The notes under the pieces are model-generated. The model saw only the letters and a list, made by a program, of their open reading frames with translations, was not told the DNA's origin and ran no database searches. Shown here piece after piece: positions 777-50,769 of a stretch of DNA of 64,000 nucleotides; position 1 is the stretch's first letter; every line of letters begins with the position of its first letter. Origin of the DNA: a bacterium (lineage in GTDB: Bacteria; Patescibacteriota; Andersenbacteria; UBA10190). Location: assembly GCA_043811915.1 (NCBI GenBank), contig JBDRMS010000006.1:22870-86869 (forward strand). Reading direction: 5' to 3'. The position numbers and the translations under genes are program-made.

Positions 777-2735
777 ATGGTGAATGAAGAAGAAAAAGAC
801 GACCTGGGGGTGATTCGCCGTCGTTTGTATGCTCGGGAGGAATCGGAAGAGTTGCAACAACGAGGGGAGGAGTTGCATCGCCTGGGCGTTACGCGGCGTT
901 CGATAATTGAGCGGCCTAAATCGAGAGAAATATTGTCGGCGCTCAAATTCAAAAATTTAGCGTTACTTAGAGCTAAAAAATGGGGGCGAGTGTTGAGGTT
1001 TTCTGGCCTACTGGCCTTTGGGATAGTAGTAGTGCTGATAATGGTGGCTTTGACTGTATGGTATCGGTCGACCAGGACGGTTACTGAATCTCAAGTGGCC
1101 CTGTCTATTGAGGCGCCGGGTGAGTTAACGGCTGGGGAAGAGATAATTTACCGAATTCCATATGGCAATGAAAGCCGGGTTGATTGGGAAAACGTGGAAT
1201 TGGTGGTGAATGTACCGAGGGGTTTTACTTTTCGGGGTAGCAATCAGGAGGTAGAGAAGCTGGGGAAACAGTTAGTGGTGAAGTATGGGAAGCTGGCCAG
1301 TGGAGAATCAGGCGAGCTGCACGTGAGGGGGCAGCTGATTGGTGAACAAAACGAGACGGCCACGGTTTTGGCGGAGTTGGTTTTGACGCCGGAAAATTTT
1401 CCCAGTGGTCGGTTTACCAAACAGGCGGTGCGGGCTACGACTATCACGGCCTTGCCGCTGGATGTATCGCTGAATATTCCGGATGATGCGGCCAGTGGCG
1501 AGCGGGTGATGGCCAGTGTGACAGTACGGAACTTGAGTAACAATACTCTGGAGGGTGTGTATTTGCAGCTAAATATGGCAGCGGGCATGCAGCTGGCCGT
1601 GGAGGACGGCGGGTTTACCCCCGGTTTTTCAGTGCCGGCTGCTGGCTGGCAGTTGTCGAGCCTGGACTCTTTACAGGAAGAAGAGCTGACGGCAGTGTTT
1701 TATGTTGAGGGACAGCCGGGCGAAAAGCGGGTGATTGATATTAAGGCGGGCATCAGGCAGGGCGAAGAGGATTTTATACAGCGTGAGTTGACTCATGTGG
1801 TAACTGTTTCGGCTTCAGAAGTGGTGGTGGACCAGTTGTATAATGGGAGTTCAAACCCCCTAACGGTGCGGGCGGGAGAGCGGGTAATGGGAGAGGTACA
1901 TTATGGCAACGTGGGGACGGTTGGTTTAAAAGATGTGATAATTGAAGTGCAGTTTGAGGGTACCAGCTTTGATCCGGCGTCTATTGATTTGGAAGCGGGG
2001 TCTTATGACCCAGAGAAAAGAACTATTGCGTGGTCGGCGGCCACGGTACCTGAATTGGCAGTATTGCAACCACAGCAGGAAGGCGTGCTAAAGTACTCTT
2101 TTAATATTTTACCTATTGGCCAGTTTCCTACGTCAGGCGAGGCGACTAAAAATCATGTGTTGGTGACGACGGCTACCATTAGCAGTCCTGACCTGCCGGC
2201 GCCGGTAGGACAGCCGCGAAAAGTTATATCGGATAGAGCTGTGCTGTCGGCGCGTACAGACTTGATTCTTGACGCCACGGCGTTATTTGATGATGGCCGG
2301 CTGGGATTGACCAGTTCGGGGCCGGTACCACCGGAAGCGGGGAAAACTACTTCCTATACAGTGCGCTGGCGAATTGGTTCGACGCTTAATGATGTGGCTG
2401 ACGTGCGACTGATAGCTGTGTTGCCGGACGGGGTTACTTATACAGATCAGATGTACAAGACGGGCGGTGAATTTGCTTTTAATGATCGAACGGGCGAGAT
2501 AGTGTGGACGCTACCGATTATGAATGGACTGGTGGGAAGGGCGGCGCCTTATCAGGAATTGCATGTGCAGGTGTCGATTAAGCCGGGGGAGGACAAACGA
2601 GGGCAGAATGTGTTGTTGTTGAATAGAACGGAATTATCGGCCGTAGACCAGTTTACGGATGAGGCAGTGGAAGTGAATTTGGCAGAATTTCCTGATACGG
2701 GGACGGCTGTACCTGGGAAAGGCGTGGTACAGTAG
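777..2735 (+). CDS. hypothetical large membrane-anchored extracellular protein (DUF11-like repeat surface protein)
   Basis: 652 aa. Single N-terminal TM helix (LLAFGIVVVLIMVALTVWY) followed by a long beta-rich, Thr/Val-rich ectodomain. No catalytic motifs recognised. Confidence 0.45.
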   Translation: MVNEEEKDDLGVIRRRLYAREESEELQQRGEELHRLGVTRRSIIERPKSREILSALKFKNLALLRAKKWGRVLRFSGLLAFGIVVVLIMVALTVWYRSTRTVTESQVALSIEAPGELTAGEEIIYRIPYGNESRVDWENVELVVNVPRGFTFRGSNQEVEKLGKQLVVKYGKLASGESGELHVRGQLIGEQNETATVLAELVLTPENFPSGRFTKQAVRATTITALPLDVSLNIPDDAASGERVMASVTVRNLSNNTLEGVYLQLNMAAGMQLAVEDGGFTPGFSVPAAGWQLSSLDSLQEEELTAVFYVEGQPGEKRVIDIKAGIRQGEEDFIQRELTHVVTVSASEVVVDQLYNGSSNPLTVRAGERVMGEVHYGNVGTVGLKDVIIEVQFEGTSFDPASIDLEAGSYDPEKRTIAWSAATVPELAVLQPQQEGVLKYSFNILPIGQFPTSGEATKNHVLVTTATISSPDLPAPVGQPRKVISDRAVLSARTDLILDATALFDDGRLGLTSSGPVPPEAGKTTSYTVRWRIGSTLNDVADVRLIAVLPDGVTYTDQMYKTGGEFAFNDRTGEIVWTLPIMNGLVGRAAPYQELHVQVSIKPGEDKRGQNVLLLNRTELSAVDQFTDEAVEVNLAEFPDTGTAVPGKGVVQ

Positions 2736-2738
2736 GTT

Positions 2739-3254
2739 ATGGTTCAAGGAATGCTTTCTCGGTTGCTGGGGGGTTCATCGTCGCGGAATAAACGACGGGA
2801 AGAGAGTTGGGGCCGGGCGCAAAAAGCTGGCCCGCCCGATGCGCTGCAGAGTTTAAACCCGCTGGCTCGCGGAGGAAGTGATTATGAGTTGGAGAGAAAG
2901 AGGCGACGGAATGAAATACAGCAGAAATTTTACAGTCCCGGTCGGAAGAGGTTGGTGAGAAGGCGCCAGCAGGCGGAACGGAGTTTTAGAGATAGTTTGC
3001 GAAGACAGCAGGAGAAAATTGAGGGGTATTACAGGTGTAAGGAAAAGAGTCTGGGTGAGGAGCGGGCCCAGGAGAAGGTAAAAGAGAGATTTAGGCGGGA
3101 AGAGAGGGAGATGACCAGAAAGTTTCGCAAAACGTGGCAGGACCAGGAAAGTGATTTAAAGCGCCAGCGCGACAGAAAATACAGGCAGATTACCAAAGAA
3201 ATGCATAAAGAATCGCGGGAGGCGAGGGGGCTGCCCGATCGAACGCAATGGTAG
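2739..3254 (+). CDS. hypothetical Arg/Glu/Lys-rich low-complexity protein
   Basis: 171-aa ORF tightly packed between neighbours, highly charged (RRNEIQQKF..RRQQEKIEGYY..RFRREEREMTRKFRK). Coding status uncertain. Confidence 0.35.
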   Translation: MVQGMLSRLLGGSSSRNKRREESWGRAQKAGPPDALQSLNPLARGGSDYELERKRRRNEIQQKFYSPGRKRLVRRRQQAERSFRDSLRRQQEKIEGYYRCKEKSLGEERAQEKVKERFRREEREMTRKFRKTWQDQESDLKRQRDRKYRQITKEMHKESREARGLPDRTQW

Positions 3255-4561
3255 ATCTGGAAACAATTGTGGGATTGGCGAAGAGACGGGGCTTTGTTTT
3301 CCCCGGCTCCGAGATTTACGGCGGCCTGGCCAACAGCTGGGACTACGGTTTGCTTGGAGTGTTGCTGAAAAATAATATTAAACGGGCCTGGTGGGACAGG
3401 TTTGTGCGAGGGCGATTAGATATGGTGGGGATTGATTCGGCTTTAATTATGAATCCAAAGGTATGGGAGGCCAGTGGCCATTTGGCCGAGTTTAGCGATC
3501 CTTTGGTTGAGTGTAAAAGTTGTCACGCCAGAGTACGTGCTGACGAGGTTGATTTAAGTGCGCCATGTCGGGAGTGCGGACAGAGAAGCAATTTTACTGA
3601 ACCGGCCCAGTTCAATATGATGTTTAAAACTTTTGTGGGGCCAAAAGAGGACGCGGCGGCGGTGGCTTATCTGCGTCCGGAGACGGCGCAGGGTATGTTT
3701 GTTAATTTTGCGCAGGTGCTAAACACTAGCAGGAAGAGAATACCGTTTGGTATTGCACAAATTGGCAAGGCTTTCAGGAATGAAATAACGCCGGGTAACT
3801 TCATATTTAGGACGCGCGAGTTTGAGCAAATGGAAATTGAGTATTTTGTGCATCCGGACGCGTGGCAGGAGTATTTTGGAGCTTGGCTTAAAGAGATGCA
3901 TGCTTGGACGGAGTTTTGCGGAATCGCACGGGATAGACTGCATGATTGTGAATGTAAGCCGGAGAATCGCTCTCACTATTCCAGTAAGACAGTGGATATA
4001 GAGTTTGACTGGCCTTTCGGCCGCAAAGAACTGTACGGCATAGCTTATCGGGGCGACCATGACCTGAATTTGCATGCCAGACATTCCGGCAAGCCCATGA
4101 ATTACACAGATCCGATTACGGGTGAGATGTACGTTCCCCACGTGGTGGAGCCAACTTTTGGCGTGGATCGGACTTTGTTGGCTATGATGTTCTCTGCCTA
4201 CCATGAAGAAGAAGTTAAGGGAGAGAAGCGGGTAATAATGAAGTTTCCGGCTGCTTTGGCGCCGTATCAGGTGGCGGTGTTGCCGTTGTCGCACAAAGAT
4301 GAACTGGAAAAGGTGTCCAGACCCCTGGCGCAGGAGCTGGCTGGGCAATTTAGCTGCGATTATGACGTGACACAGTCAATTGGCAAGCGATATCGTCGTC
4401 AGGATGAAATTGGCACACCTTATTGTATAACGGTCGATTTTGAAAGTCTGGAGGATAAAGCCGTGACAATAAGAGACAGGGATAGTATGGAGCAGGAGAG
4501 GATATCGATTGGCGAAGTGGCAGAACGAATAAAATCCAAAGTCCAAAATCCAAATGACTAA
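3248..4561 (+). CDS. glyQS: glycine--tRNA ligase (alpha2 homodimeric type)
   Basis: 437 aa. N-terminus IVGLAKRRGFVFPGSEIYGGLANSWDYGLLG and class II aaRS motifs (FRNEITPGNFIFRTREFEQMEIEYF) match the dimeric GlyRS family. Confidence 0.85.
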   Translation: MVDLETIVGLAKRRGFVFPGSEIYGGLANSWDYGLLGVLLKNNIKRAWWDRFVRGRLDMVGIDSALIMNPKVWEASGHLAEFSDPLVECKSCHARVRADEVDLSAPCRECGQRSNFTEPAQFNMMFKTFVGPKEDAAAVAYLRPETAQGMFVNFAQVLNTSRKRIPFGIAQIGKAFRNEITPGNFIFRTREFEQMEIEYFVHPDAWQEYFGAWLKEMHAWTEFCGIARDRLHDCECKPENRSHYSSKTVDIEFDWPFGRKELYGIAYRGDHDLNLHARHSGKPMNYTDPITGEMYVPHVVEPTFGVDRTLLAMMFSAYHEEEVKGEKRVIMKFPAALAPYQVAVLPLSHKDELEKVSRPLAQELAGQFSCDYDVTQSIGKRYRRQDEIGTPYCITVDFESLEDKAVTIRDRDSMEQERISIGEVAERIKSKVQNPND

Positions 4562-5843
4562 AAGGGCGTCGTTTCCTCTTGTTAAAAAAGAATTGTCTTC
4601 TGGTTTGCGTGTCTTGTTGTTACCGAGGTCTGAAGGCGAGACGGTGACGCTGCTGGTTCTAATTGGCGTGGGCTCGCGTTATGAGGCGAAGAAGCAAAGT
4701 GGACTGTCCCACTTTCTGGAGCATATGTTTTTCAAAGGAACGAAAACGCGTCCTGATAAGCGTGAAATTGCAGAGGCGATGGACAATATTGGGGCGGAAT
4801 TTAATGCTTTTACTGGTGAAGAAGTGACGGGGTACTACGTCAAGGCGGCCAGGGAACACCTGGATTTGGGGGCTGACGTGGTGTCAGATATATTGTTGCG
4901 TTCCTTGTTTCCGGCGGAGGAGATAGAGCGGGAGCGAGGGGTGATTAAGGAGGAGATAAAAATGTATACTGATTCGCCCATGCAGCACGTTCATCATTTG
5001 TGGCGTCGTGCTTTGTTTGGTAAGCAGCCGTTGGGGCGTCGCATTGATGGTTCGGCGAAGACAGTATCTGCTTTTCAGCGGAGTGACTTTGTGTCTTATA
5101 CGAAGAAGCATTACCACACGGGCAATGCGGTGGTGGCCCTGGCGGGAAATTTTGACAGTGATGAAGCATTAGACAAGATGCAGTTGCTGTTTAAGGAATT
5201 GCCGCAAGGCGAGGAAACCGAGCCCGAGGCGGCACGGGAAGGACCGGCCGAGCGGCTGGTGCATGAGCGCAGGGAATCACTGGATCAAACACATTTAGTG
5301 GTCGGTGTGCCAGGCGTGTCGCTGGACGATGACCGGCGTTTCGCCGCTAACTTGCTGGCTATTATTTTGGGCGGGGGAATGAGCAGCAGATTGTTTATGA
5401 AAGTGAGAGAGAAAGAGGGCTTGGCTTATGCTATTCGCAGCTCAATTGACAATTTTGTCGACACCGGCAGCCTGGAAACGCAGGCTGGTTTGCGCACGGA
5501 TAGGGCAGATTTTGCGCTAAAATTAATTTTACAAGAGTATGACAGAGTGATGCAGGAGGTTGTGCCGGCGGCCGAAATTAATAAAGTTAAACAGATGGTG
5601 CGCGGCCACATGGTATTGGAACTGGAGGAAACAAATTCTCTGGCCATGTTTGCCGGAGTGCAGGAGCTGTTGCAGAATAAGGTTATGACGCCGCATGAAC
5701 TGTGGCAGCGCACTCAAGCTGTGACGGCACAGGATATTCAGCGAGTGGCACAGGATTTACTTAGTCCGGGGCGGAGGGCAGCCGCATTGCTTAGTCCGCA
5801 CGAGTCGGTGAATGCCTTTGAACAACAGCTTAAGACAGAGTAG
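4554..5843 (+). CDS. M16 family zinc peptidase (insulinase-like, inverted HxxEH motif)
   Basis: 429 aa. HFLEHMFFKGT inverted zinc-binding motif near the N-terminus, plus a second inactive-half-like domain. Confidence 0.75.
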   Translation: MTKRASFPLVKKELSSGLRVLLLPRSEGETVTLLVLIGVGSRYEAKKQSGLSHFLEHMFFKGTKTRPDKREIAEAMDNIGAEFNAFTGEEVTGYYVKAAREHLDLGADVVSDILLRSLFPAEEIERERGVIKEEIKMYTDSPMQHVHHLWRRALFGKQPLGRRIDGSAKTVSAFQRSDFVSYTKKHYHTGNAVVALAGNFDSDEALDKMQLLFKELPQGEETEPEAAREGPAERLVHERRESLDQTHLVVGVPGVSLDDDRRFAANLLAIILGGGMSSRLFMKVREKEGLAYAIRSSIDNFVDTGSLETQAGLRTDRADFALKLILQEYDRVMQEVVPAAEINKVKQMVRGHMVLELEETNSLAMFAGVQELLQNKVMTPHELWQRTQAVTAQDIQRVAQDLLSPGRRAAALLSPHESVNAFEQQLKTE

Positions 5844-5854
5844 TATGCAGGGGT

Positions 5855-6904
5855 ATGGATAATAACGGCCAGACAGCGAAAATAGATATTTCGACGGGCA
5901 CCATATTCAGGGCTGTTTTGATTCTGATTAGCTTCTGGTTTCTATACGTAATTTTTGATTTTTTGCTGATGTTGTTTGCCTCGGTGGTAGTAGCCAGTGC
6001 AATCAGGCCGGTGGCTGATAGACTGGAGAGGTACCGTGTGCCGCGGGCATTATCGGTTGTCCTGGTATATATTGTAGTCCTGGTTTTGTTGTCGGTGGTG
6101 GTGTCGTTGATTGTTCCGCCGCTGGCGGAGCAGGTAACTCAATTAGCCCATGCGTTGCCGGCACTGGTGGAGTATTTGAGCAATCAGGGCCTGGTTCCGT
6201 CGTCGGGAGCAGTTAAGGGGACAGTCAGTGCGTGGCAGCAGGCACTAGCCGGAGTGGGAAATAACCTGGCCAATGTGGGAGCGGGGTTGTTTCGCCAGAC
6301 GCGGACGGTGTTTTCGGGGGTGTTCACTCTGGTTTTTATGTTTGTGATTGCATTGTACCTGGTGGTGGACAAAGATGTCATAAAGAAGCCTTTTCAGATT
6401 GTGGTACCGGCCAGGCATATGCCGTATGTGGAGATGGCGATTAACCGGGCTCAGAAGAAGATCGGACGCTGGATGTTGGCGCAATTGACTTTGGGAGTGA
6501 TTATTGGCGTGGTGGTGTCGGTAGGCTTGTGGTTGATGGGAGTGCCGTACTCTTTACTGTTGGGCCTGGTGGCGGGGGTGCTGGAGATGGTACCGATTAT
6601 CGGGCCGATTGTCGCGGCGGTGCCGGCTGTACTAGTTGGCTTTACACAATCCTGGATGTTAGGACTGGGAATAATATTATTTTATTTGCTGGTACAACAG
6701 GCGGAAAACCACTTGTTGATTCCATTTATAATGCGGAAAGCTACGGGCTTGAACCCACTTGTTATTATATTGGCGATATTGCTGGGTGCGCGGTTAGTTG
6801 GTGTGGTGGGAGTATTGCTGGCAGTGCCGGCAGCGGTGGTGATATGCGCTTTTGTTAATGATTTGGCATCGGCGTCTGAAACTAATGATGAACTAGCGGG
6901 CTAA
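5855..6904 (+). CDS. AI-2E family transporter (UPF0118/PerM-like)
   Basis: 349 aa, about 8 TM helices. Length and hydropathy pattern are typical of the AI-2E family. Confidence 0.65.
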   Translation: MDNNGQTAKIDISTGTIFRAVLILISFWFLYVIFDFLLMLFASVVVASAIRPVADRLERYRVPRALSVVLVYIVVLVLLSVVVSLIVPPLAEQVTQLAHALPALVEYLSNQGLVPSSGAVKGTVSAWQQALAGVGNNLANVGAGLFRQTRTVFSGVFTLVFMFVIALYLVVDKDVIKKPFQIVVPARHMPYVEMAINRAQKKIGRWMLAQLTLGVIIGVVVSVGLWLMGVPYSLLLGLVAGVLEMVPIIGPIVAAVPAVLVGFTQSWMLGLGIILFYLLVQQAENHLLIPFIMRKATGLNPLVIILAILLGARLVGVVGVLLAVPAAVVICAFVNDLASASETNDELAG

Positions 6905-7351
6905 AACCAGGGTGAGGGCCAGGGCGACGAGAGTAATTTGAAAAACAAGGCCGCGGGGGATGTTGTTTGTCTCGCGCTGGATGTGGTTGTGGAAATGGAA
7001 TAATGGTTTAAGCCAATTGAGATATTTGGTGTGCGTGACAGGGCCAAGGAGATTGTAGAGGGTGTGAATGATGTCCGGAGTGTTACTGCCGATCATGGCA
7101 ATAACAGCCGGCCGCAGGGGCAGGCGATTTATGGTAATTAGCAGGGCCAGCGTAATTCCTCCCAATACGTCGATGGCGACCAGTGTATACGGGTAGGGGC
7201 GTTTATTGGGATCTATGTTCCAGTGGAGGATTGAATCGGCGAGCAGGTGGAGGAGAAAAGCGGCGGCGAAGATTAAGAAAGGATTTTGCAAATAAACGCC
7301 AAGAGGCAGGCTGATAATGGTGTGGGTAGCGGACAGCACATAAGCTATCAT
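6893..7351 (-). CDS. hypothetical membrane protein (His-rich, possibly membrane-bound metal-dependent hydrolase-like)
   Basis: 152 aa, 4 predicted TM helices, several conserved-looking His (HLLADSILHW, HFHNH). Family assignment is tentative. Confidence 0.35.
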   Translation of the reverse strand: MIAYVLSATHTIISLPLGVYLQNPFLIFAAAFLLHLLADSILHWNIDPNKRPYPYTLVAIDVLGGITLALLITINRLPLRPAVIAMIGSNTPDIIHTLYNLLGPVTHTKYLNWLKPLFHFHNHIQRETNNIPRGLVFQITLVALALTLVLAR

Positions 7352-7359
7352 ACCCTTAT

Positions 7360-8124
7360 ATGATAGATAGTCACGCGCATGTCATGTTTTCCCAGTTTGA
7401 CGAGGATCGGGAAGAGGTTATGGGAAGAGCCCGGGAAGCAGGTGTTGAAGGATGGATTGAAGTGGGGACAGATGTGGAGCAGAGCAAAAAGGCTATTGCC
7501 CTGGCTCGGAGGCATGATAGGGTGTTTGCCGCGGTTGGCGTTCATCCGAGCGAGGTGGAAACTCTGAACGAGGAGGACTGGGGGACATTAAAGAAATTGG
7601 CAAAAGGGAAAGAAGTGATAGCTATAGGCGAAGTGGGAATTGATTTGTACAGAGGTGGATCTTTGCAGAAGCAACTTGAGGCATTGCGGCGATTTATTGG
7701 ACTGGCCGGGGAAAGGAATTTGCCAATTGTTTTTCATGTGAGAGGCAGCGAGGAAGTGGACGCGCATGACCAAGTATTAAAGTTATTGAGCGCCCCAGCC
7801 TTAGGTGTAATGCATTCATTTAGCGGTACGTGGCGGCAGGCGGAAAAATATATGGAATTAGGTATGTACCTTGCTTTTAACGGCGTAGTGACGTTCAAGA
7901 ATGCGGGAGAGATAGCGGAGATAGCGCGCCGGGTACCATTGAATAGAATATTGATAGAGACGGACTGTCCATATCTTGCGCCGGAGCCGCATCGGGGAAA
8001 GCGCAACGAACCGGCCTATGTGAAGTTGGTGGCAGAAAAAATCGCGGAGTTGAGAGGAATGACGGTGAGCGAAGTTGTTGAGGCTACTTCTGATAATACT
8101 GAAAGATTATTTGGCCTAAAGTAA
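7360..8124 (+). CDS. tatD: TatD family metal-dependent DNase/hydrolase
   Basis: 254 aa. MIDSHAHV start, HxH metal-binding motif and ETDCPYLAP motif characteristic of TatD. Confidence 0.8.
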   Translation: MIDSHAHVMFSQFDEDREEVMGRAREAGVEGWIEVGTDVEQSKKAIALARRHDRVFAAVGVHPSEVETLNEEDWGTLKKLAKGKEVIAIGEVGIDLYRGGSLQKQLEALRRFIGLAGERNLPIVFHVRGSEEVDAHDQVLKLLSAPALGVMHSFSGTWRQAEKYMELGMYLAFNGVVTFKNAGEIAEIARRVPLNRILIETDCPYLAPEPHRGKRNEPAYVKLVAEKIAELRGMTVSEVVEATSDNTERLFGLK

Positions 8125-41798: not shown

Positions 41799-41925
41799 AA
41801 CCGGTAGATGTTGTTTTTAAAGTTTGATCAAAAGGGATAAGTGAAGTGGGTGTAACTCCCACGCTGTGCCGCAACGGTAACCCCGCCTTTAGGCGGGGGA
41901 GTCCGATCCTTATCCGGTGTGTTAA
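41799..41925 (+). ncRNA. candidate cobalamin (B12) riboswitch
   Basis: Matches the remembered cobalamin-riboswitch core: GGGATAAGTGAAGTGGGTGTAACTCCCACGCTGTGCCGCAACGGTAA (GGTG.AA.TCC...GCTG.CCGCAAC.GTAA). A GC hairpin CCCCGCC-ttta-GGCGGGG and an AGTCCG B12-box-like segment follow. ACCGGT at both ends can close a P1 helix. The element sits directly upstream of the DUF4430 gene. Confidence 0.55.
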
Positions 41926-42004
41926 TTATTATTTAGCTTCCGAGCAGGGGCGCAAAGAAAGAATATTTGTCTCCTTGCTCTGGAAAATCAAGAAAGGAGA
42001 TTTT

Positions 42005-47862: not shown

Positions 47863-48699
47863 CTACTTTACCTCTAGCCTGTCACCGAGAATGGCGTCGA
47901 TCTCCGCGACAGTTTCGGCCGGTTCCTTCAGGTCTTGGAGGAGGGTATCCACGGAACTGATGTCGTTTTCTACAGCCGCCTCGTCCCATTTTTCCCCCTC
48001 TACCCTAAGTTCAGTTTCGACATTCACCAGCAGTGCTTCGATTTTTTCCTCAATACCAGCCAGCTGGTTGGACAGTGAAGTGCTGTTGCCTACGGCGTAG
48101 GAAGACTGGAGAGCTTTCAAAGCCACAGATTTGGCATCGATAGCCGCCAGCTGTGACTTGAACCGTTCTACTTTGTCCCGGGCAACTATCTGTTTTTGGC
48201 CAAGTCCTTCGGCTGTCTTTTGCATAACCAGCTGTGCCTCCTGCAATCCGGAAATACTCCCTGCCTTGTTTTTCCTGAGAGTAATCAATCGGTCAGACGT
48301 TCTTTGAATGTCATCCACGGAGTAGGTTCTACCCGCTATCTCGACCGGTGCAGACCCGGTAAGTTTTGTGCGCAGTCTACTTAGTGTCTGATCTATCTGC
48401 TGCACCGACTCCTCCAGAGACTTAATTTCTCTGTCCAGACGCTCCGCTTTGACTGTCGTCTGGATTCTTGTTCTGCGCATGGCTTCAATATCGCTCTTGA
48501 CTTTCTCCATCGCCAAGGTGATTGCCTTGCGCTCCACGGCTAACTTGCCCAGAACCCTATCAATTCGTTCCAGAAAACTGTCAGCCACCAACTCGCCGCG
48601 GGCACCGAGATCCTTGACGAAAAAGGCGGCGCCCAAGGCGAGCAACGCAACAATAACCAGCACGATTACCAAGACTCTCATTTTAGTGTCTCCTAACAA
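47863..48699 (-). CDS. membrane-anchored long coiled-coil protein (PspA/IM30-like?)
   Basis: 278 aa. N-terminal TM (VLVIVLVIVALLALGAAFFV) followed by about 230 aa of heptad-rich helix. Confidence 0.4.
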   Translation of the reverse strand: MLGDTKMRVLVIVLVIVALLALGAAFFVKDLGARGELVADSFLERIDRVLGKLAVERKAITLAMEKVKSDIEAMRRTRIQTTVKAERLDREIKSLEESVQQIDQTLSRLRTKLTGSAPVEIAGRTYSVDDIQRTSDRLITLRKNKAGSISGLQEAQLVMQKTAEGLGQKQIVARDKVERFKSQLAAIDAKSVALKALQSSYAVGNSTSLSNQLAGIEEKIEALLVNVETELRVEGEKWDEAAVENDISSVDTLLQDLKEPAETVAEIDAILGDRLEVK

Positions 48700-48807
48700 G
48701 AGGAAGAAAGTGGTACTAGATACGTCAGTCCGTTTTGCCAGGGTTCCAGAGTTGTCTTTTACATCTTATTACCTCCTTCTCATAAACTGTTGTGGTCTTT
48801 TAGGAAA

Positions 48808-49731
48808 CTACCGTTTGAGTTCTTGCTCGAGGATGGCTTCGACGTTGAGGCCGCGCACCACGTTGTTACCTGATAACAACTGTGTCATCTGCTCGTCCAC
48901 TTCTGCCAGAATCGTTTCAATTTCCTGAACATCAGACTCTGACAGCTCCGTCCCTGCCAAGCCCTCGCGACGTTTCAAGCGACGTTCCGCCGACTCCAGT
49001 TGGCTGATCATGACAGTGTAACTGGCGTGCCTTTCTTCTGCCTCGCTAATTTGCTGTACCAGCTCGGTCAGCTCATTGGCCAGAGGCCGGGCGGAGGCCA
49101 GAGGCCGGGCGGAAGGAGAGCGTTGCAGGTCTGATGCCGACTTAACGCCCAAGAAACGTAGACCGCTAACGAGATTACTGCGGTCTTTCTTAAATCTCTC
49201 CAGACGGGACACTATGTTCTCGTCTTTCTGGCGGATTTCGGCCAGACGAGCATCAAGACGACCGGAAGATTGAGCGATATTGTTGTTTGGTGACTGTAGT
49301 GGAGTGTAGCGTCCCTCGAGCCGTTTAATGATAGTCTCATCTCTGTGATGACCTTCAGAACGGACTAGCAAGAGTTCACCGGAGGGCAATATTTCTTTAG
49401 AGAAACAATGTGAATAGAAACTATCATAGCTGCCCGGCTCGAGATGCACCCCCAAGTTCTTAACGCGGACCGAAATACCTGATCTCGTGGTTGAGTAGGT
49501 TGTTCTGTAAGTGTCGGAGCCAGCGGTGACAATCAGATGTCCCCCCGCGGTGAAATCTAAAACAGTTGATGAGTCGCCCGTTTTTTTCCATTGTCTGCAG
49601 AGAACGTCCCGTCGCCCTTCTATGTCGGGATCATCGTAGACACCGAGCAGATAACCACAGATGGCAAGGTAGGGTGCTGAAATTATAAATATCCTAAACC
49701 ATCTTTTCTCGAGCCAATCCAACCAACTCAT
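48808..49731 (-). CDS. hypothetical membrane-anchored protein with C-terminal coiled coil and internal tandem repeat
   Basis: 307 aa. N-terminal TM, a globular middle domain and a C-terminal coiled coil. Contains an in-frame 18-nt tandem duplication at ~49080-49116 encoding SARPLASARPLA. Confidence 0.4.
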   Translation of the reverse strand: MSWLDWLEKRWFRIFIISAPYLAICGYLLGVYDDPDIEGRRDVLCRQWKKTGDSSTVLDFTAGGHLIVTAGSDTYRTTYSTTRSGISVRVKNLGVHLEPGSYDSFYSHCFSKEILPSGELLLVRSEGHHRDETIIKRLEGRYTPLQSPNNNIAQSSGRLDARLAEIRQKDENIVSRLERFKKDRSNLVSGLRFLGVKSASDLQRSPSARPLASARPLANELTELVQQISEAEERHASYTVMISQLESAERRLKRREGLAGTELSESDVQEIETILAEVDEQMTQLLSGNNVVRGLNVEAILEQELKR

Positions 49732-50025
49732 TTTTATGTCTCCAGTTTGAGGTAGGCGGTGGAAAAAACGTGTTTGTTACGTTCTCATATTCAATTGTGA
49801 AGAGAACAACACGGACGAAACGACTATTCATTTAAGCACGAATAAAGATGCTCTGTCAAGGTCTTTATTATGTCTAAGCGCTGGGGGCTTGCTTGAGCTT
49901 GTTAAGGCTTCTAGTGGCATTTCTAAAGCTAAGGTTTAGAAATGCGTCTAGGCGGCGTGTGGAGGTTGTATTTTGCGATTGACTTGTTGGCGAAAGAGTA
50001 ATAAAAAGAGGGGTGTTGTTCTTTT

Positions 50026-50118
50026 GGGGACGTAGATCAATTGGGAGATCACTCCAGCTGGCCGCAAATGTGCACTATGCGGCAGGAGAGGTTAGGGGTT
50101 CGATTCCCTTCGTCTCCA
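50026..50118 (+). tRNA. aberrant tRNA-like element (~92 nt): canonical acceptor, D- and T-arms but an expanded bulged hairpin in place of a standard anticodon arm
   Basis: Acceptor GGGGACG/CGTCTCC (one G.U) with discriminator A. D-arm GATC-AATTGGGA-GATC. T-arm AGGGG-TTCGATT-CCCTT. The central 43 nt form CTCC..GCCGCA-aatgtgcacta-TGCGGC..GGAG rather than a 5-bp/7-nt anticodon arm. Confidence 0.4.
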
Positions 50119-50187
50119 TTTCCCCTGCGGGGGATTTTTTCTTGCTTGATACTGAAGTGAAAGTAGAGTATTAATGAAAGTATTACT

Positions 50188-50769
50188 ATGATTGAAAGGA
50201 CTTTAGTCATCGTGAAGCCGGACGGGGTGCAGCGCGGTTTGCTGGGAGAAATAATCGGTCGTTTTGAAAGGGCCGGTTTGAAGGTTGTGGGCATGAAAAT
50301 GGTGTGGCCCAACGAAGAGCTAGTAGGCCGGCATTATACTGGTGATGAGGAATACTTAGAGAGTGTGGGGGAGAAGGCGCTCGCCAGTGCCAGGGAGAGG
50401 GGAGCGGAGTTGAAGGAAACGGCGCTGGAAATTGGCCGGCGGGTAAGAGAGACCAACATGAAATATATTTCAACCGGCCCGGTACTGGCTTTTGTGTTGG
50501 AGGGGAATACGGCGGTGCAGACGGTGCGCAACATGATCGGTGGCACAAACCCGCTAAGTGCGGATATCGGTACAATCCGGGGCGACCTGACGATTGATGA
50601 CTTTACTCAAGCGGACAGCGAGGAAAGATCAGTGCGGAACCTGATGCATGCTTCAGGAGATTTGGCAGAGGCCGAGCGGGAGATAAAACTTTGGTTTGAA
50701 GAGAGTGAGTTGCATAATTACCAGACGGTGATGGATAAAGTGTTGCACGATCCAAGTTGGGGCAAATGA
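50188..50769 (+). CDS. ndk: nucleoside diphosphate kinase with ~35-aa internal insertion
   Basis: 193 aa. N-terminus TLVIVKPDGVQRGLLGEIIGRFE and an active-site His region (NLMHASGDLAEAEREIKLWF). Has an extra segment between the HY and GPV motifs. Confidence 0.8.
   Translation: MIERTLVIVKPDGVQRGLLGEIIGRFERAGLKVVGMKMVWPNEELVGRHYTGDEEYLESVGEKALASARERGAELKETALEIGRRVRETNMKYISTGPVLAFVLEGNTAVQTVRNMIGGTNPLSADIGTIRGDLTIDDFTQADSEERSVRNLMHASGDLAEAEREIKLWFEESELHNYQTVMDKVLHDPSWGK

What the first reader, a model, noticed from the sequence alone, without database searches (positions are those of the whole stretch)
50026..50118. tRNA-like gene with canonical acceptor/D/T arms but a non-canonical expanded anticodon region
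The element has textbook features: U8, A9, the D-arm GATC-AATTGGGA-GATC, the T-arm with GGTTCGATTCC and a 7-bp acceptor with discriminator A. However, 43 nt lie between the D and T arms and fold into a long bulged hairpin (CTCC/GGAG outer stem, GCCGCA/TGCGGC inner stem, 11-nt loop containing GTGCAC). No 5/7/5 anticodon arm can be drawn. Possibilities include a tRNA with a short anticodon-arm insertion (intron-like), a tRNA-derived regulatory RNA or mobile-element attachment site, or a pseudogene. It lies in a 450-bp intergenic region upstream of ndk.
Basis: seen in the sequence. Interest (0 to 1): 0.55.

Follow-up and report, generated by a model that had tools for sequence, protein, structure and literature searches.

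The report
Alanine tRNA-like gene, oversized anticodon arm
A candidate-phylum (Andersenbacteria) bacterium carries a gene with a textbook alanine-tRNA body whose anticodon arm is replaced by a 37-nt hairpin, so it probably accepts alanine but cannot read codons; it is a real, conserved oddity whose role is unproven.

Summary
Window 50026-50118 (+) matches the Rfam tRNA model (47.3 bits, E 5e-7). It has an intact acceptor stem, D arm, T arm and tertiary-contact nucleotides, but 37 nt where a 17-nt anticodon arm belongs. It carries the full alanine identity set (G3·U70, A73, G2:C71, G20). A TTGACT-17-TAAAAA promoter-like site precedes it and an intrinsic terminator follows it.

An orthologue at the same site in another Andersenbacteria genome (L064) keeps the fold: 7 compensatory double changes and 0 broken pairs in 20, with G3·U70 retained. 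Its arm is also expanded (+16 nt) but has an unrelated sequence.

Closer relatives lack the element at this site. There is no integrase, att repeat, RtcB or Ro60 nearby.

An intron is unlikely. There is no bulge-helix-bulge motif. ARAGORN's intron mode gives Ala(GGC) here but His(GUG) in the orthologue, and it calls Ala in 8.6% of shuffled arms.

Best reading (about 0.45): a non-decoding, alanine-accepting tRNA-like RNA. Rivals are a decaying tRNA-Ala gene (about 0.28) and a processed intervening sequence (about 0.13).

Similar G3·U70 tRNA bodies with replaced anticodon arms occur elsewhere, next to Ro60 or RtcB. Expression and charging are untested.

The parts
49979..50007 (+). Promoter-like site TTGACT (49979-49984), 17-nt spacer, TAAAAA (50002-50007). 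It would give a short 5' leader of roughly 10-15 nt ahead of position 50026.
   Evidence: Read from the sequence. L064 has the same arrangement, TTGACT-17-TACAAA, ahead of its tRNA-like genes. The consensus scanner did not call it because the -10 hexamer ends in A. Inferred, not shown.
50026..50118 (+). The whole 93-nt tRNA-Ala-like gene, from the acceptor 5' strand to discriminator A73. No CCA is encoded.
   Evidence: Rfam tRNA 47.3 bits, E 5.4e-7, model positions 1-71. Identical in L001 and L112. Orthologue at L064 2869-2958, 49.2 bits.
50026..50032 (+). Acceptor stem 5' strand GGGGACG. It pairs with 50111-50117 (CGTCTCC) and includes G3·U70 and G2:C71.
   Evidence: All 7 pairs are kept in L064, with 3 compensatory double changes and G3·U70 unchanged.
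50035..50050 (+). D arm GATC-AATTGGGA-GATC with A14, A15, G18, G19, G20 and A21. The 11:24 pair is A:U.
50052..50088 (+). Expanded anticodon-arm region, 37 nt instead of 17. Outer stem CUCC/GGAG, 5' bulge AGCUG opposite A, inner stem GCCGCA (50061-50066) / UGCGGC (50078-50083), and an 11-nt loop (50067-50077) containing the palindrome GUGCAC.
   Evidence: Folding of the arm gives -11.7 kcal/mol. It is unique in the window. Its interior shows no sequence homology to the L064 arm (p about 0.18).
50089..50110 (+). Variable loop AGGTT (50089-50093) and T arm AGGGG-TTCGATT-CCCTT (50094-50110).
   Evidence: The variable loop is identical in L064. The T stem keeps pairing through 2 double changes and 1 single change.
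50111..50118 (+). Acceptor 3' strand CGTCTCC and discriminator A73.
50120..50140 (+). Intrinsic terminator: hairpin TTCCCCTGCGGGGGA followed by TTTTTT.
   Evidence: Terminator scan.
50188..50769 (+). ndk, the downstream neighbour. It is not part of the element. Its own promoter-like region (50141-50180) is conserved in relatives that lack the element.

Best explanation
This is a stand-alone gene for a tRNA-Ala-derived, non-decoding tRNA-like RNA.

Proposed sequence of events:
1. It is transcribed from its own promoter and ends at its own terminator.
2. It is matured like the other CCA-less tRNAs of this genome: RNase P cuts at the 5' end, the 3' end is trimmed, and CCA is added.
3. AlaRS recognises it through G3·U70, A73, G2:C71 and G20. 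AlaRS does not need the anticodon.
4. Its anticodon arm is a hairpin about 10 bp too long, with no 7-nt U-turn loop, so it cannot pair with a codon on the ribosome.

It would therefore act outside decoding. It could donate alanine to a non-ribosomal acceptor, or serve as a tRNA-shaped scaffold or decoy, as Y RNAs do.

Shown here: the fold, the identity nucleotides, the terminator, and conservation of the fold through compensatory changes. Inferred: promoter use, processing, charging and the downstream role.
For: 1. The body is a complete tRNA. Rfam scores it at 47.3 bits over the full model. U8, A14, A15:U48, G18, G19, G46, the T-loop UUCGAUU and G53:C61 are all present.
2. The E. coli-type alanine identity set is complete (established knowledge of AlaRS identity: G3·U70 major; A73, G2:C71 and G20 minor). 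It is read directly from the sequence.
3. An orthologue lies at the same genomic site in L064 (Ndk 83% identical). Of 20 stem pairs, 12 are the same, 7 are compensatory double changes, 1 is a single GC-to-GU change and none is broken. G3·U70 and the variable loop AGGUU are unchanged. Its arm is also expanded (33 nt) with the same layout of base stem, 5' bulge and 6-bp stem.
4. The rest of the two intergenic regions cannot be aligned, so the element is the conserved feature there.
5. It is its own unit, with a shared TTGACT-17-TAMAAA motif and a terminator.
6. The normal tRNAs of this genome also lack an encoded CCA, so 3' maturation is available.
7. No processing scheme turns both orthologues into alanine decoders.
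8. There is precedent for the design. G3·U70 tRNA bodies with replaced anticodon arms are conserved next to Ro60 in Armatimonadota and Chloroflexota, and next to RtcB in Chryseobacterium.
Against: - Only two lineages carry it. Closer relatives (Ndk 91% and 87% identical) lack it at this site, so it is dispensable, at least here.
- The arm sequence is not conserved, so there is no evidence that a specific partner binds it.
- No partner gene (Ro60, RtcB, Fem/MprF-type transferase) lies within 64 kb.
- The two expansions could have arisen independently. In that case the compensatory changes would date from a time when both were ordinary tRNAs.
- There are no expression or charging data.
- The promoter was not called by the consensus scanner.
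Confidence: 0.45

Rival explanations
1. It is a decaying tRNA-Ala gene (pseudogene). A redundant alanine tRNA gene upstream of ndk suffered an insertion or duplication in its anticodon arm, no longer functions, and is being lost from the clade.
For: - It is absent at this site in the two closest relatives examined (L111 and L107) and in about eight other Andersenbacteria ndk loci.
- L064 carries a clearly degenerate second tRNA-like copy next to its orthologue (33.8 bits, disturbed acceptor).
- The arm interiors are unrelated in sequence.
- No linked partner gene was found.
Against: - The body has no defect at all. All 20 stem pairs are intact in both lineages, with 7 compensatory doubles, and every tertiary-contact nucleotide, the terminator and a shared promoter-like motif are retained.
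- The flanking intergenic DNA has diverged beyond alignment, and neutral decay should have hit the stems too.
- Both copies carry an expansion at the same place in the same genomic site. That is most simply explained if the expansion is ancestral and the fold was maintained afterwards.
Confidence: 0.28
2. It is a true tRNA-Ala(GGC) gene with a short intervening sequence. An 18-nt segment (GCCGCAAAUGUGCACUAU, or the same segment shifted by up to 2 nt) is removed and the halves are joined. This gives a 6-bp anticodon stem CUCCAG/CAGGAG and the loop CUGGCGG.
For: - ARAGORN with intron search returns exactly this solution, and its anticodon agrees with the G3·U70 identity.
- L091/L092 show a much cleaner case of an insert in a tRNA-Ala(UGC) loop, so short inserts in bacterial-type tRNA genes do exist.
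- CPR bacteria are known for insertions in rRNA genes (own knowledge).
Against: - The call is within chance. Intron mode makes a call for 1000 of 1000 shuffled arms and calls Ala in 8.6% of them.
- The orthologue L064 gives His(GUG) with G3·U70, and no single deletion gives it an Ala anticodon.
- There is no bulge-helix-bulge motif. The 3' junction lies inside the 6-bp helix, and the only bulge is on the proximal 5' side.
- There is no group I intron or ribozyme hit at E up to 1.
- The product would have an A·A mismatch, a 6-bp stem and G37/G38, which is atypical for tRNA-Ala.
- No RtcB gene is present in the window.
Confidence: 0.13
3. It is a Y-RNA-type scaffold. The tRNA-like body recruits an effector and the long arm binds a Ro60-type or other RNA-surveillance protein encoded elsewhere in the genome.
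For: - The same overall design lies directly upstream of Ro60 in L007, L012, L043 and L058.
- The L064 arm contains GGCGAAG, which fits the published GNCGAA(N)G Ro-binding motif (PMC4201824).
Against: - No Ro60/TROVE or RtcB gene is present in the 64-kb window or in the L064 locus.
- The window arm lacks the motif.
- The arm is not conserved between the orthologues.
- Rfam's YrlA model gives nothing for the window and only E 0.34 across the tandem pair in L064.
Confidence: 0.07
4. It is a mobile-element attachment site or a tRNA-derived mobile repeat.
For: The Cob_adeno_trans-ndk interval is variable. It is 58 nt in L107, 568 nt with two tRNA-like genes in L064, and 2.4 kb with two extra genes plus the element in the window.
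Against: - There is no integrase or transposase nearby.
- There is no second copy of the 3' half or of the insert, and no bounding repeats.
- The extra genes lie 5' of the element, not 3' of it.
- The extra genes occur without the element in L116, and the element occurs without them in L064.
- No viral-contig match was found.
Confidence: 0.03

Closest known systems
Canonical bacterial tRNA-Ala (Rfam RF00005)
   Same: Acceptor stem, D arm, variable loop, T arm, all tertiary-contact nucleotides and the alanine identity set are the same. As in the other tRNA genes of this genome, CCA is not encoded.
   Different: The anticodon arm is 37 nt instead of 17. There is no 7-nt loop with U33 and an NGC anticodon in the canonical register. 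The 11:24 pair is A:U.
Bacterial Y RNAs with tRNA-like domains (YrlA, RF02553; Chen et al. 2014, PMC4201824)
   Same: Both are tRNA mimics with intact D/T tertiary contacts and a long helix in place of a decoding anticodon arm. Related long-armed G3·U70 genes found here sit next to Ro60.
   Different: YrlA is circularly permuted: its termini lie in the long helix, the acceptor stem is closed by a loop, and it has no free CCA end. It is encoded next to rsr. This element has normal tRNA topology, no Ro60 nearby and no conserved Ro-binding helix.
tRNA-like domain of tmRNA
   Same: It has a G3·U70 acceptor stem charged by AlaRS, a T arm, and a long helix in place of the anticodon arm.
   Different: tmRNA is about 350 nt, with pseudoknots and a tag reading frame, and it lacks a D stem. 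This element is 93 nt with a full D arm and no reading frame. Rfam lists only RF00005 at this position; lower-scoring overlapping matches from the same clan (which includes tmRNA) were suppressed and not identified.
Archaeal/eukaryal intron-containing pre-tRNAs (bulge-helix-bulge introns) and the 'enigmatic' short tRNA introns of Lak megaphages (PMC6784885)
   Same: All have a short insert in the anticodon-arm region of an otherwise normal tRNA gene.
   Different: This element has no bulge-helix-bulge motif, the anticodon implied by splicing differs between the two orthologues, and the host is bacterial with no splicing genes in view.
Non-proteinogenic tRNAs used for cell-wall synthesis (for example staphylococcal tRNA-Gly; own knowledge)
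   Same: The proposed logic is the same: an aminoacylatable tRNA kept out of translation.
   Different: Those tRNAs keep a normal anticodon arm and avoid translation through weak EF-Tu binding. Here the arm itself is incompatible with decoding, and no transferase partner has been identified.
tRNAs with elongated anticodon stems (tRNA-Pyl, mitochondrial tRNA-Ser(UCN), tRNA-Sec; review PMC7609411)
   Same: All depart from the 5-bp anticodon stem.
   Different: The known cases add one base pair and keep a 7-nt decoding loop. This element adds about 10 bp, with a bulge and an 11-nt loop.

Membership tests
tRNA (RF00005), functional decoder | Match to the covariance model above the gathering score | tested here: met
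   47.3 bits against a gathering score of 29, full model length.
tRNA (RF00005), functional decoder | 5-bp anticodon stem with a 7-nt loop containing U33 and an anticodon | tested here: not met
   The arm is 37 nt. The model needs a 29-nt insert where it has 9 nt. Default ARAGORN makes no call. The fold shows a bulged hairpin with an 11-nt loop.
tRNA-Ala identity | G3·U70, plus A73, G2:C71 and G20 | tested here: met
   All are present in the sequence. G3·U70 is retained in L064. Actual charging was not tested.
Intron-containing tRNA (protein-spliced) | Bulge-helix-bulge motif: two 3-nt bulges on opposite strands, 4 bp apart, holding the splice sites | tested here: not met
   There is a single 5-nt bulge on the proximal 5' strand opposite one A. 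The proposed 3' junction lies inside the 6-bp helix.
Intron-containing tRNA (protein-spliced) | Removal of the insert gives the same, identity-consistent anticodon in orthologues | tested here: not met
   The window gives Ala(GGC) and L064 gives His(GUG). The Ala call has p about 0.09 against shuffled arms.
Group I intron in a tRNA anticodon loop | Intron of about 200 nt or more with a group I fold | tested here: not met
   The insert is 18-20 nt. Rfam gives no intron or ribozyme hit at E up to 1.
Y RNA / YrlA | Encoded next to a Ro60 (TROVE) gene | tested here: not met
   No TROVE or vWA_Ro60 gene is present in the window or in L064. The rest of the genome was not visible.
Y RNA / YrlA | Conserved Ro-binding helix or motif, and the YrlA covariance model | tested here: not met
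   The window arm has no GNCGAA(N)G motif. There is no YrlA hit at E up to 1.
tmRNA | Tag reading frame and pseudoknots between the halves of the tRNA-like domain | tested here: not met
   The element is 93 nt in total. ARAGORN and Rfam give no tmRNA call.
tRNA pseudogene | Disrupted stems or lost conserved nucleotides, and no selection on the fold | tested here: inconclusive
   The body is fully intact and covaries with its orthologue. However, the anticodon arm is non-functional for decoding, and the gene is absent from closer relatives.
Integration (att) site tRNA | Adjacent integrase and a direct repeat of the tRNA 3' end | tested here: not met
Non-decoding aminoacyl donor or tRNA-like scaffold (proposed) | Stable expression, CCA addition, aminoacylation and a partner enzyme | not testable with these tools
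   This needs RNA-seq or biochemistry. No candidate partner lies within 64 kb.

The most novel reading that the evidence does not exclude
Some CPR bacteria maintain a dedicated alanine-accepting tRNA-like RNA whose anticodon arm has been replaced by a freely evolving long hairpin. It would belong to a broader and largely undescribed class of 'G3·U70 tRNA body plus replaced anticodon arm' RNAs, which elsewhere are partnered with Ro60 or with RtcB plus an unknown 584-aa protein. In this reading the RNA supplies alanine, or a tRNA-shaped handle, to a process outside the ribosome. A rarer and more radical variant is that the 18-nt insert is removed by an unknown bacterial tRNA splicing pathway that does not use a bulge-helix-bulge motif.
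Probability: 0.35. Interest if true: 0.7.

Novelty: new variant of a known kind. Interest (0 to 1): 0.5.

Why it matters
If the RNA is expressed and charged, it would be a natural example of a tRNA that has been taken out of decoding by rebuilding its anticodon arm while keeping synthetase identity. That arrangement separates aminoacylation from translation. It bears on how tRNA mimics such as Y RNAs and tmRNA arise from tRNA genes. It also bears on non-ribosomal uses of aminoacyl-tRNA in the reduced CPR bacteria, and on tRNA gene annotation: default tRNA finders miss these genes, and intron-aware modes assign them arbitrary anticodons. If it is only a decaying gene, it is still a useful warning about intron-mode tRNA calls in metagenome-assembled genomes.

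Tried and rejected
- Fixed-register enumeration of 20-nt deletions. It gave only a clean Arg(GCG) product, which conflicts with G3·U70. It missed the 18-nt / 6-bp-stem solution that ARAGORN found later.
- ARAGORN intron call of Ala(GGC). Rejected as evidence after the shuffle test (Ala in 8.6% of 1000 shuffles) and the His call in the orthologue.
- Attachment site or mobile repeat. No repeats, no integrase and no viral match.
- Link to the two adjacent coiled-coil genes. Rejected, because L116 has the genes without the element and L064 has the element without the genes.
- Cis-regulatory leader of ndk. Rejected, because a terminator and a separate ndk promoter region lie between them, and that region is conserved in L111, which lacks the element.
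- Kissing-loop dimerisation through the GUGCAC palindrome. A 6-nt palindrome in an 11-nt loop is expected about 9% of the time, and it is absent from L064. Not pursued.
- 'UGC at the tip' as a displaced Ala anticodon (UGUGCAC with G33). It is not consistent across the other long-armed elements.
- Sequence homology between the two expanded arms. Not significant.
- Whether the 584-aa Bacteroidota partner is a Ro60. No (hhalign probability 0.1%).
- Collecting more orthologues. Only L064 was found beyond same-strain copies.
- Burroughs and Aravind 2016 (PMC5062991) could not be read.

Full report
**1. Observation**

The window is core chromosome of a Candidatus Andersenbacteria (CPR/Patescibacteria) bacterium.
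- The taxon follows from source names of close Ndk homologues.
- The genes are housekeeping: RecO, four aminoacyl-tRNA synthetases, Pth, FtsA/FtsZ, ComEC, class II RNR, Ndk, S7, EF-G, EF-Tu, L3 and L4.

At 50026-50118 (+) the Rfam tRNA model matches over its full length at 47.3 bits (E 5.4e-7). It needs 29 nt where the model has 9. ARAGORN in its default mode finds only the two ordinary tRNAs of the window, Leu-CAA and Pro-GGG, and not this element.

- a 7-bp acceptor stem, GGGGACG/CGUCUCC, with discriminator A73
- U8 and A9
- the D arm GAUC-AAUUGGGA-GAUC
- 43 nt between the D and T arms (A26, a 37-nt arm and the variable loop AGGUU)
- the T arm AGGGG-UUCGAUU-CCCUU

The arm folds into CUCC/GGAG, a 5' bulge AGCUG opposite one A, GCCGCA/UGCGGC and an 11-nt loop. 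The sequence is identical in two other assemblies from separate runs (L001 and L112).

**2.

- The 3:70 pair is G·U. Together with A73, G2:C71 and G20 this is the complete E. coli-type alanine identity set (established knowledge of AlaRS recognition, which does not use the anticodon).
- All tertiary-contact nucleotides of a class I tRNA are in place: U8, A14, A15:U48, G18, G19, G46, the T-loop and G53:C61.
- An intrinsic terminator follows immediately, at 50120-50134 plus a T-run.
- A TTGACT-17-TAAAAA motif lies at 49979-50007. L064 has TTGACT-17-TACAAA in the same position. The consensus scanner did not call it, so promoter use is inferred.
- CCA is not encoded, but it is not encoded in the window's normal tRNA genes either.
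- ndk has its own promoter-like region downstream of the terminator. That region is conserved in a relative that lacks the element.

The element is therefore an independent gene and not a leader of ndk.

**3. Relatives**

Two collection scans with patterns requiring a tRNA-Ala-type D arm and T arm separated by an over-long middle found no close relative. Contig look-ups through Ndk homologues did.

- L064 (Ndk 83% identical) has the same gene order, Cob_adeno_trans - [568 nt] - ndk. It has an orthologous element at 2869-2958 (49.2 bits), preceded by a second, degenerate tRNA-like copy at 2768-2842 (33.8 bits).
- I compared 20 stem pairs between the two orthologues. Twelve are identical, 7 differ by compensatory double changes, 1 differs by a single GC-to-GU change, and none is broken. 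G3·U70 and the variable loop are unchanged.
- The L064 arm is also expanded (33 nt, +16) and has the same layout of base stem, 5' bulge and 6-bp stem. Its interior shows no sequence similarity to the window arm (p about 0.18).
- Outside the element and the ndk promoter region, the two intergenic regions cannot be aligned.
- The element is absent at this site in closer relatives. L107 (87%) has only 58 nt between the flanking genes. L111 (91%) has unrelated sequence there. It is also absent from the other Andersenbacteria ndk loci examined.

**4. Is the expansion an intron?**

- Rfam gives no group I intron or ribozyme hit at E up to 1.
- The fold has no bulge-helix-bulge motif.
- My fixed-register enumeration gave only an Arg(GCG) product.
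- ARAGORN run locally with intron search gives tRNA-Ala(GGC) with an 18-nt intron. The product has a 6-bp stem containing an A·A mismatch and the loop CUGGCGG.
- This agrees with the alanine identity and had to be taken seriously. But the same mode gives His(GUG) for the orthologue, and Ser and Arg for other G3·U70 elements.
- With the arm interior shuffled, intron mode makes a call in 1000 of 1000 cases and calls Ala in 8.6%.
- No single deletion makes L064 an alanine decoder.

I rate the intron or intervening-sequence model at about 0.13.

**5. Is it mobile or an att site?**

- The insert and the 3' half are unique in the window, and nothing bounds the region.
- There is no integrase and no viral-contig match.
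- The two coiled-coil genes that separate Cob_adeno_trans from the element in the window occur without any tRNA-like gene in L116. L064 has the element without them.

This model is rejected.

**6. The wider class**

The scans turned up many unrelated tRNA-like genes with intact bodies, frequently G3·U70, and anticodon arms of 25-75 nt. Three groups are informative.

- (a) In Armatimonadota and Chloroflexota (L012, L043, L058, L007), tandem long-armed copies lie directly upstream of a Ro60 orthologue with TROVE and vWA_Ro60 domains. The L012 arm carries GCCGAAGG, matching the GNCGAA(N)G Ro motif described for bacterial Y RNAs (PMC4201824). Rfam's YrlA model gives only sub-threshold hits across junctions of tandem copies. 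The YrlA authors flagged this kind of hit as a false positive.
- (b) In about 20 Chryseobacterium genomes and one Melioribacteraceae MAG, a G3·U70 tRNA-like gene with a conserved arm motif (ACUUYYCGC..GGCA..RAAGUUCCU) always sits next to a 584-aa protein of unknown family. In the Chryseobacterium loci where the upstream flank is held (18 of 20), it also lies downstream of RtcB. That protein is not detectably Ro60.
- (c) L091/L092 look like a real tRNA-Ala(UGC) with a clean 28-nt insert that pairs with the anticodon. In L103 a long-armed Ala-like gene sits in a tRNA array beside Ala(GGC) and Ala(CGC).

'A tRNA-Ala body with a replaced anticodon arm' is therefore a recurring design that is conserved in at least two lineages, and there it is tied to RNA surveillance or repair proteins. 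The window element shares the design but not the partners. No Ro60 or RtcB gene lies in the 64 kb or in L064, and its arm has no conserved motif.

**7. Explanation**

The best-supported reading is a stand-alone, non-decoding, alanine-accepting tRNA-like RNA (0.45).
- Shown: the fold, the identity set, the terminator, and maintenance of the fold through compensatory change after (most simply) a shared ancestral expansion.
- Inferred: transcription, RNase P/CCA maturation, charging by AlaRS, exclusion from the ribosome by an arm about 10 bp too long without a U-turn loop, and any downstream role. Candidate roles are alanine donation to a cell-wall, lipid or quality-control reaction, or use as a scaffold or decoy.

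The main rival is a decaying redundant tRNA-Ala gene (0.28). It is favoured by the patchy distribution and by the degenerate neighbour in L064. It is disfavoured by the flawless body in DNA that has otherwise diverged beyond alignment. A Y-RNA-type scaffold with a distant Ro60 partner (0.07) and an att site (0.03) complete the list.

**8. Comparison with known families, and novelty**

- It passes the tRNA covariance model but fails the defining decoding feature, a 5/7/5 anticodon arm.
- It differs from YrlA in topology: YrlA is permuted and has no free 3' end (PMC4201824; bioRxiv 10.1101/312249).
- It differs from tmRNA in size, in having a D stem, and in lacking a reading frame.
- It differs from archaeal-type introns in lacking a bulge-helix-bulge motif.
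- It differs from known long-stem tRNAs (Pyl, Sec, mitochondrial Ser), which add only one base pair (PMC7609411).

I found no paper describing tRNA bodies with anticodon stems lengthened by about 10 bp in CPR bacteria. I class it as a new variant of a known kind (tRNA-derived tRNA mimic). Interest is 0.5: it is a real and conserved oddity, but it is known from only two lineages, is dispensable in close relatives, and has no expression data or partner.

Noticed in passing
L020 4048-4160 (+), with RtcB at 2571-3953 and the 584-aa ORF at 4396-6150. The same layout is seen in L002, L006, L009, L011, L014, L016, L025, L026, L028, L031, L032, L037, L048, L049, L051-L053, L055 and L061. L017 is at 2784-2894 (-).: Chryseobacterium species and a Melioribacteraceae MAG carry a 100-113-nt G3·U70 tRNA-like gene. 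Its anticodon arm is replaced by a conserved domain (ACUUYYCGC..GGCA..RAAGUUCCU). It is always followed by a 584-aa protein with no Pfam, NCBIfam or PDB match. That protein is not Ro60 by hhalign. In the Chryseobacterium loci where the upstream flank is held (18 of 20) it lies just downstream of an RtcB RNA ligase gene. A WYL regulator is nearby in L020. This looks like an undescribed RtcB-linked tRNA-like RNA module.
   Followed up: partly
L007 5314-5567 (+) with Ro60 at 5728-7515. L012, L043 and L058 have tandem elements about 0.3-0.7 kb upstream of Ro60 (3247-4929, 3589-5301 and 4498-6162, all on the - strand).: Armatimonadota/Chloroflexota loci have two tandem long-armed tRNA-like genes, one with G3·U70, directly upstream of a Ro60 orthologue (TROVE + vWA_Ro60). 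A NYN-domain gene lies beyond it in two of the loci. The L012 arm contains the Ro-binding motif GCCGAAGG. These are probably Y RNAs with normal (non-permuted) tRNA topology. Rfam's YrlA model only reaches sub-threshold scores.
   Followed up: partly
L091 388-488 (-) and L092 (identical sequence): A tRNA-Ala(UGC)-like gene with a clean 28-nt insert: CUGCU-UUUGC[UGAGUGCUUUCUUACGAGAGUAUUGAGC]AA-GGCAG. The insert pairs with the anticodon. The gene sits beside normal tRNA-Lys and tRNA-Thr genes. It is a much better candidate for a true short tRNA intron than the window element.
   Followed up: partly
L103 238-1873 (-): A dense tRNA array ordered by amino acid: Leu x4, Gly, Ala-GGC, Ala-CGC, then a long-armed G3·U70 Ala-like gene at 956-1049, then Ser x3. 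CCA is encoded.
   Followed up: no
L010 4406-4495, plus L029, L022, L033, L041 and L062: tRNA genes from Nitrospirota, Verrucomicrobiota and others, scoring up to 68 bits, with the anticodon loop UUUAUAC (UAU) and an unusually long extra arm. This is an odd combination for an AUA-reading tRNA.
   Followed up: no
L064 2768-2842 (+): A second, degenerate tRNA-like gene lies just upstream of the orthologue of the finding. It has a shifted acceptor (GGGUCGG/CCGAUUC) with extra nucleotides before the D arm, and an 8-10-nt 'anticodon' loop containing GUGC.
   Followed up: partly
window 41815-41962 (+): An AdoCbl riboswitch hit just under threshold (44.6 bits against 50). It lies upstream of two DUF4430 proteins, a DUF6580 protein, the B12-dependent class II ribonucleotide reductase and a cobalamin adenosyltransferase. 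This is a coherent B12 operon, so the riboswitch is probably real.
   Followed up: partly
window 49911-49951: A 20-nt-arm palindrome (CTAGTGGCATTTCTAAAGCT / AGGTTTAGAAATGCGTCTAG) lies in the region between the divergently oriented 307-aa gene and the tRNA-like gene. It may be an operator or an RNA hairpin.
   Followed up: no
window 47863-49731 (-): Two coiled-coil proteins of unknown function (278 and 307 aa) are inserted between Cob_adeno_trans and ndk relative to L107 and L064. Only four homologues of the 307-aa protein were found in 5.8 billion proteins.
   Followed up: partly
L101 79-420 (-): A short contig with a run of unusual tRNA calls: SeC(tca), Pro(agg), Arg(cct), and a G3·U70 long-armed element that ARAGORN calls Pyl(cta). 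It may be a phage or recoding-related tRNA cluster.
   Followed up: no
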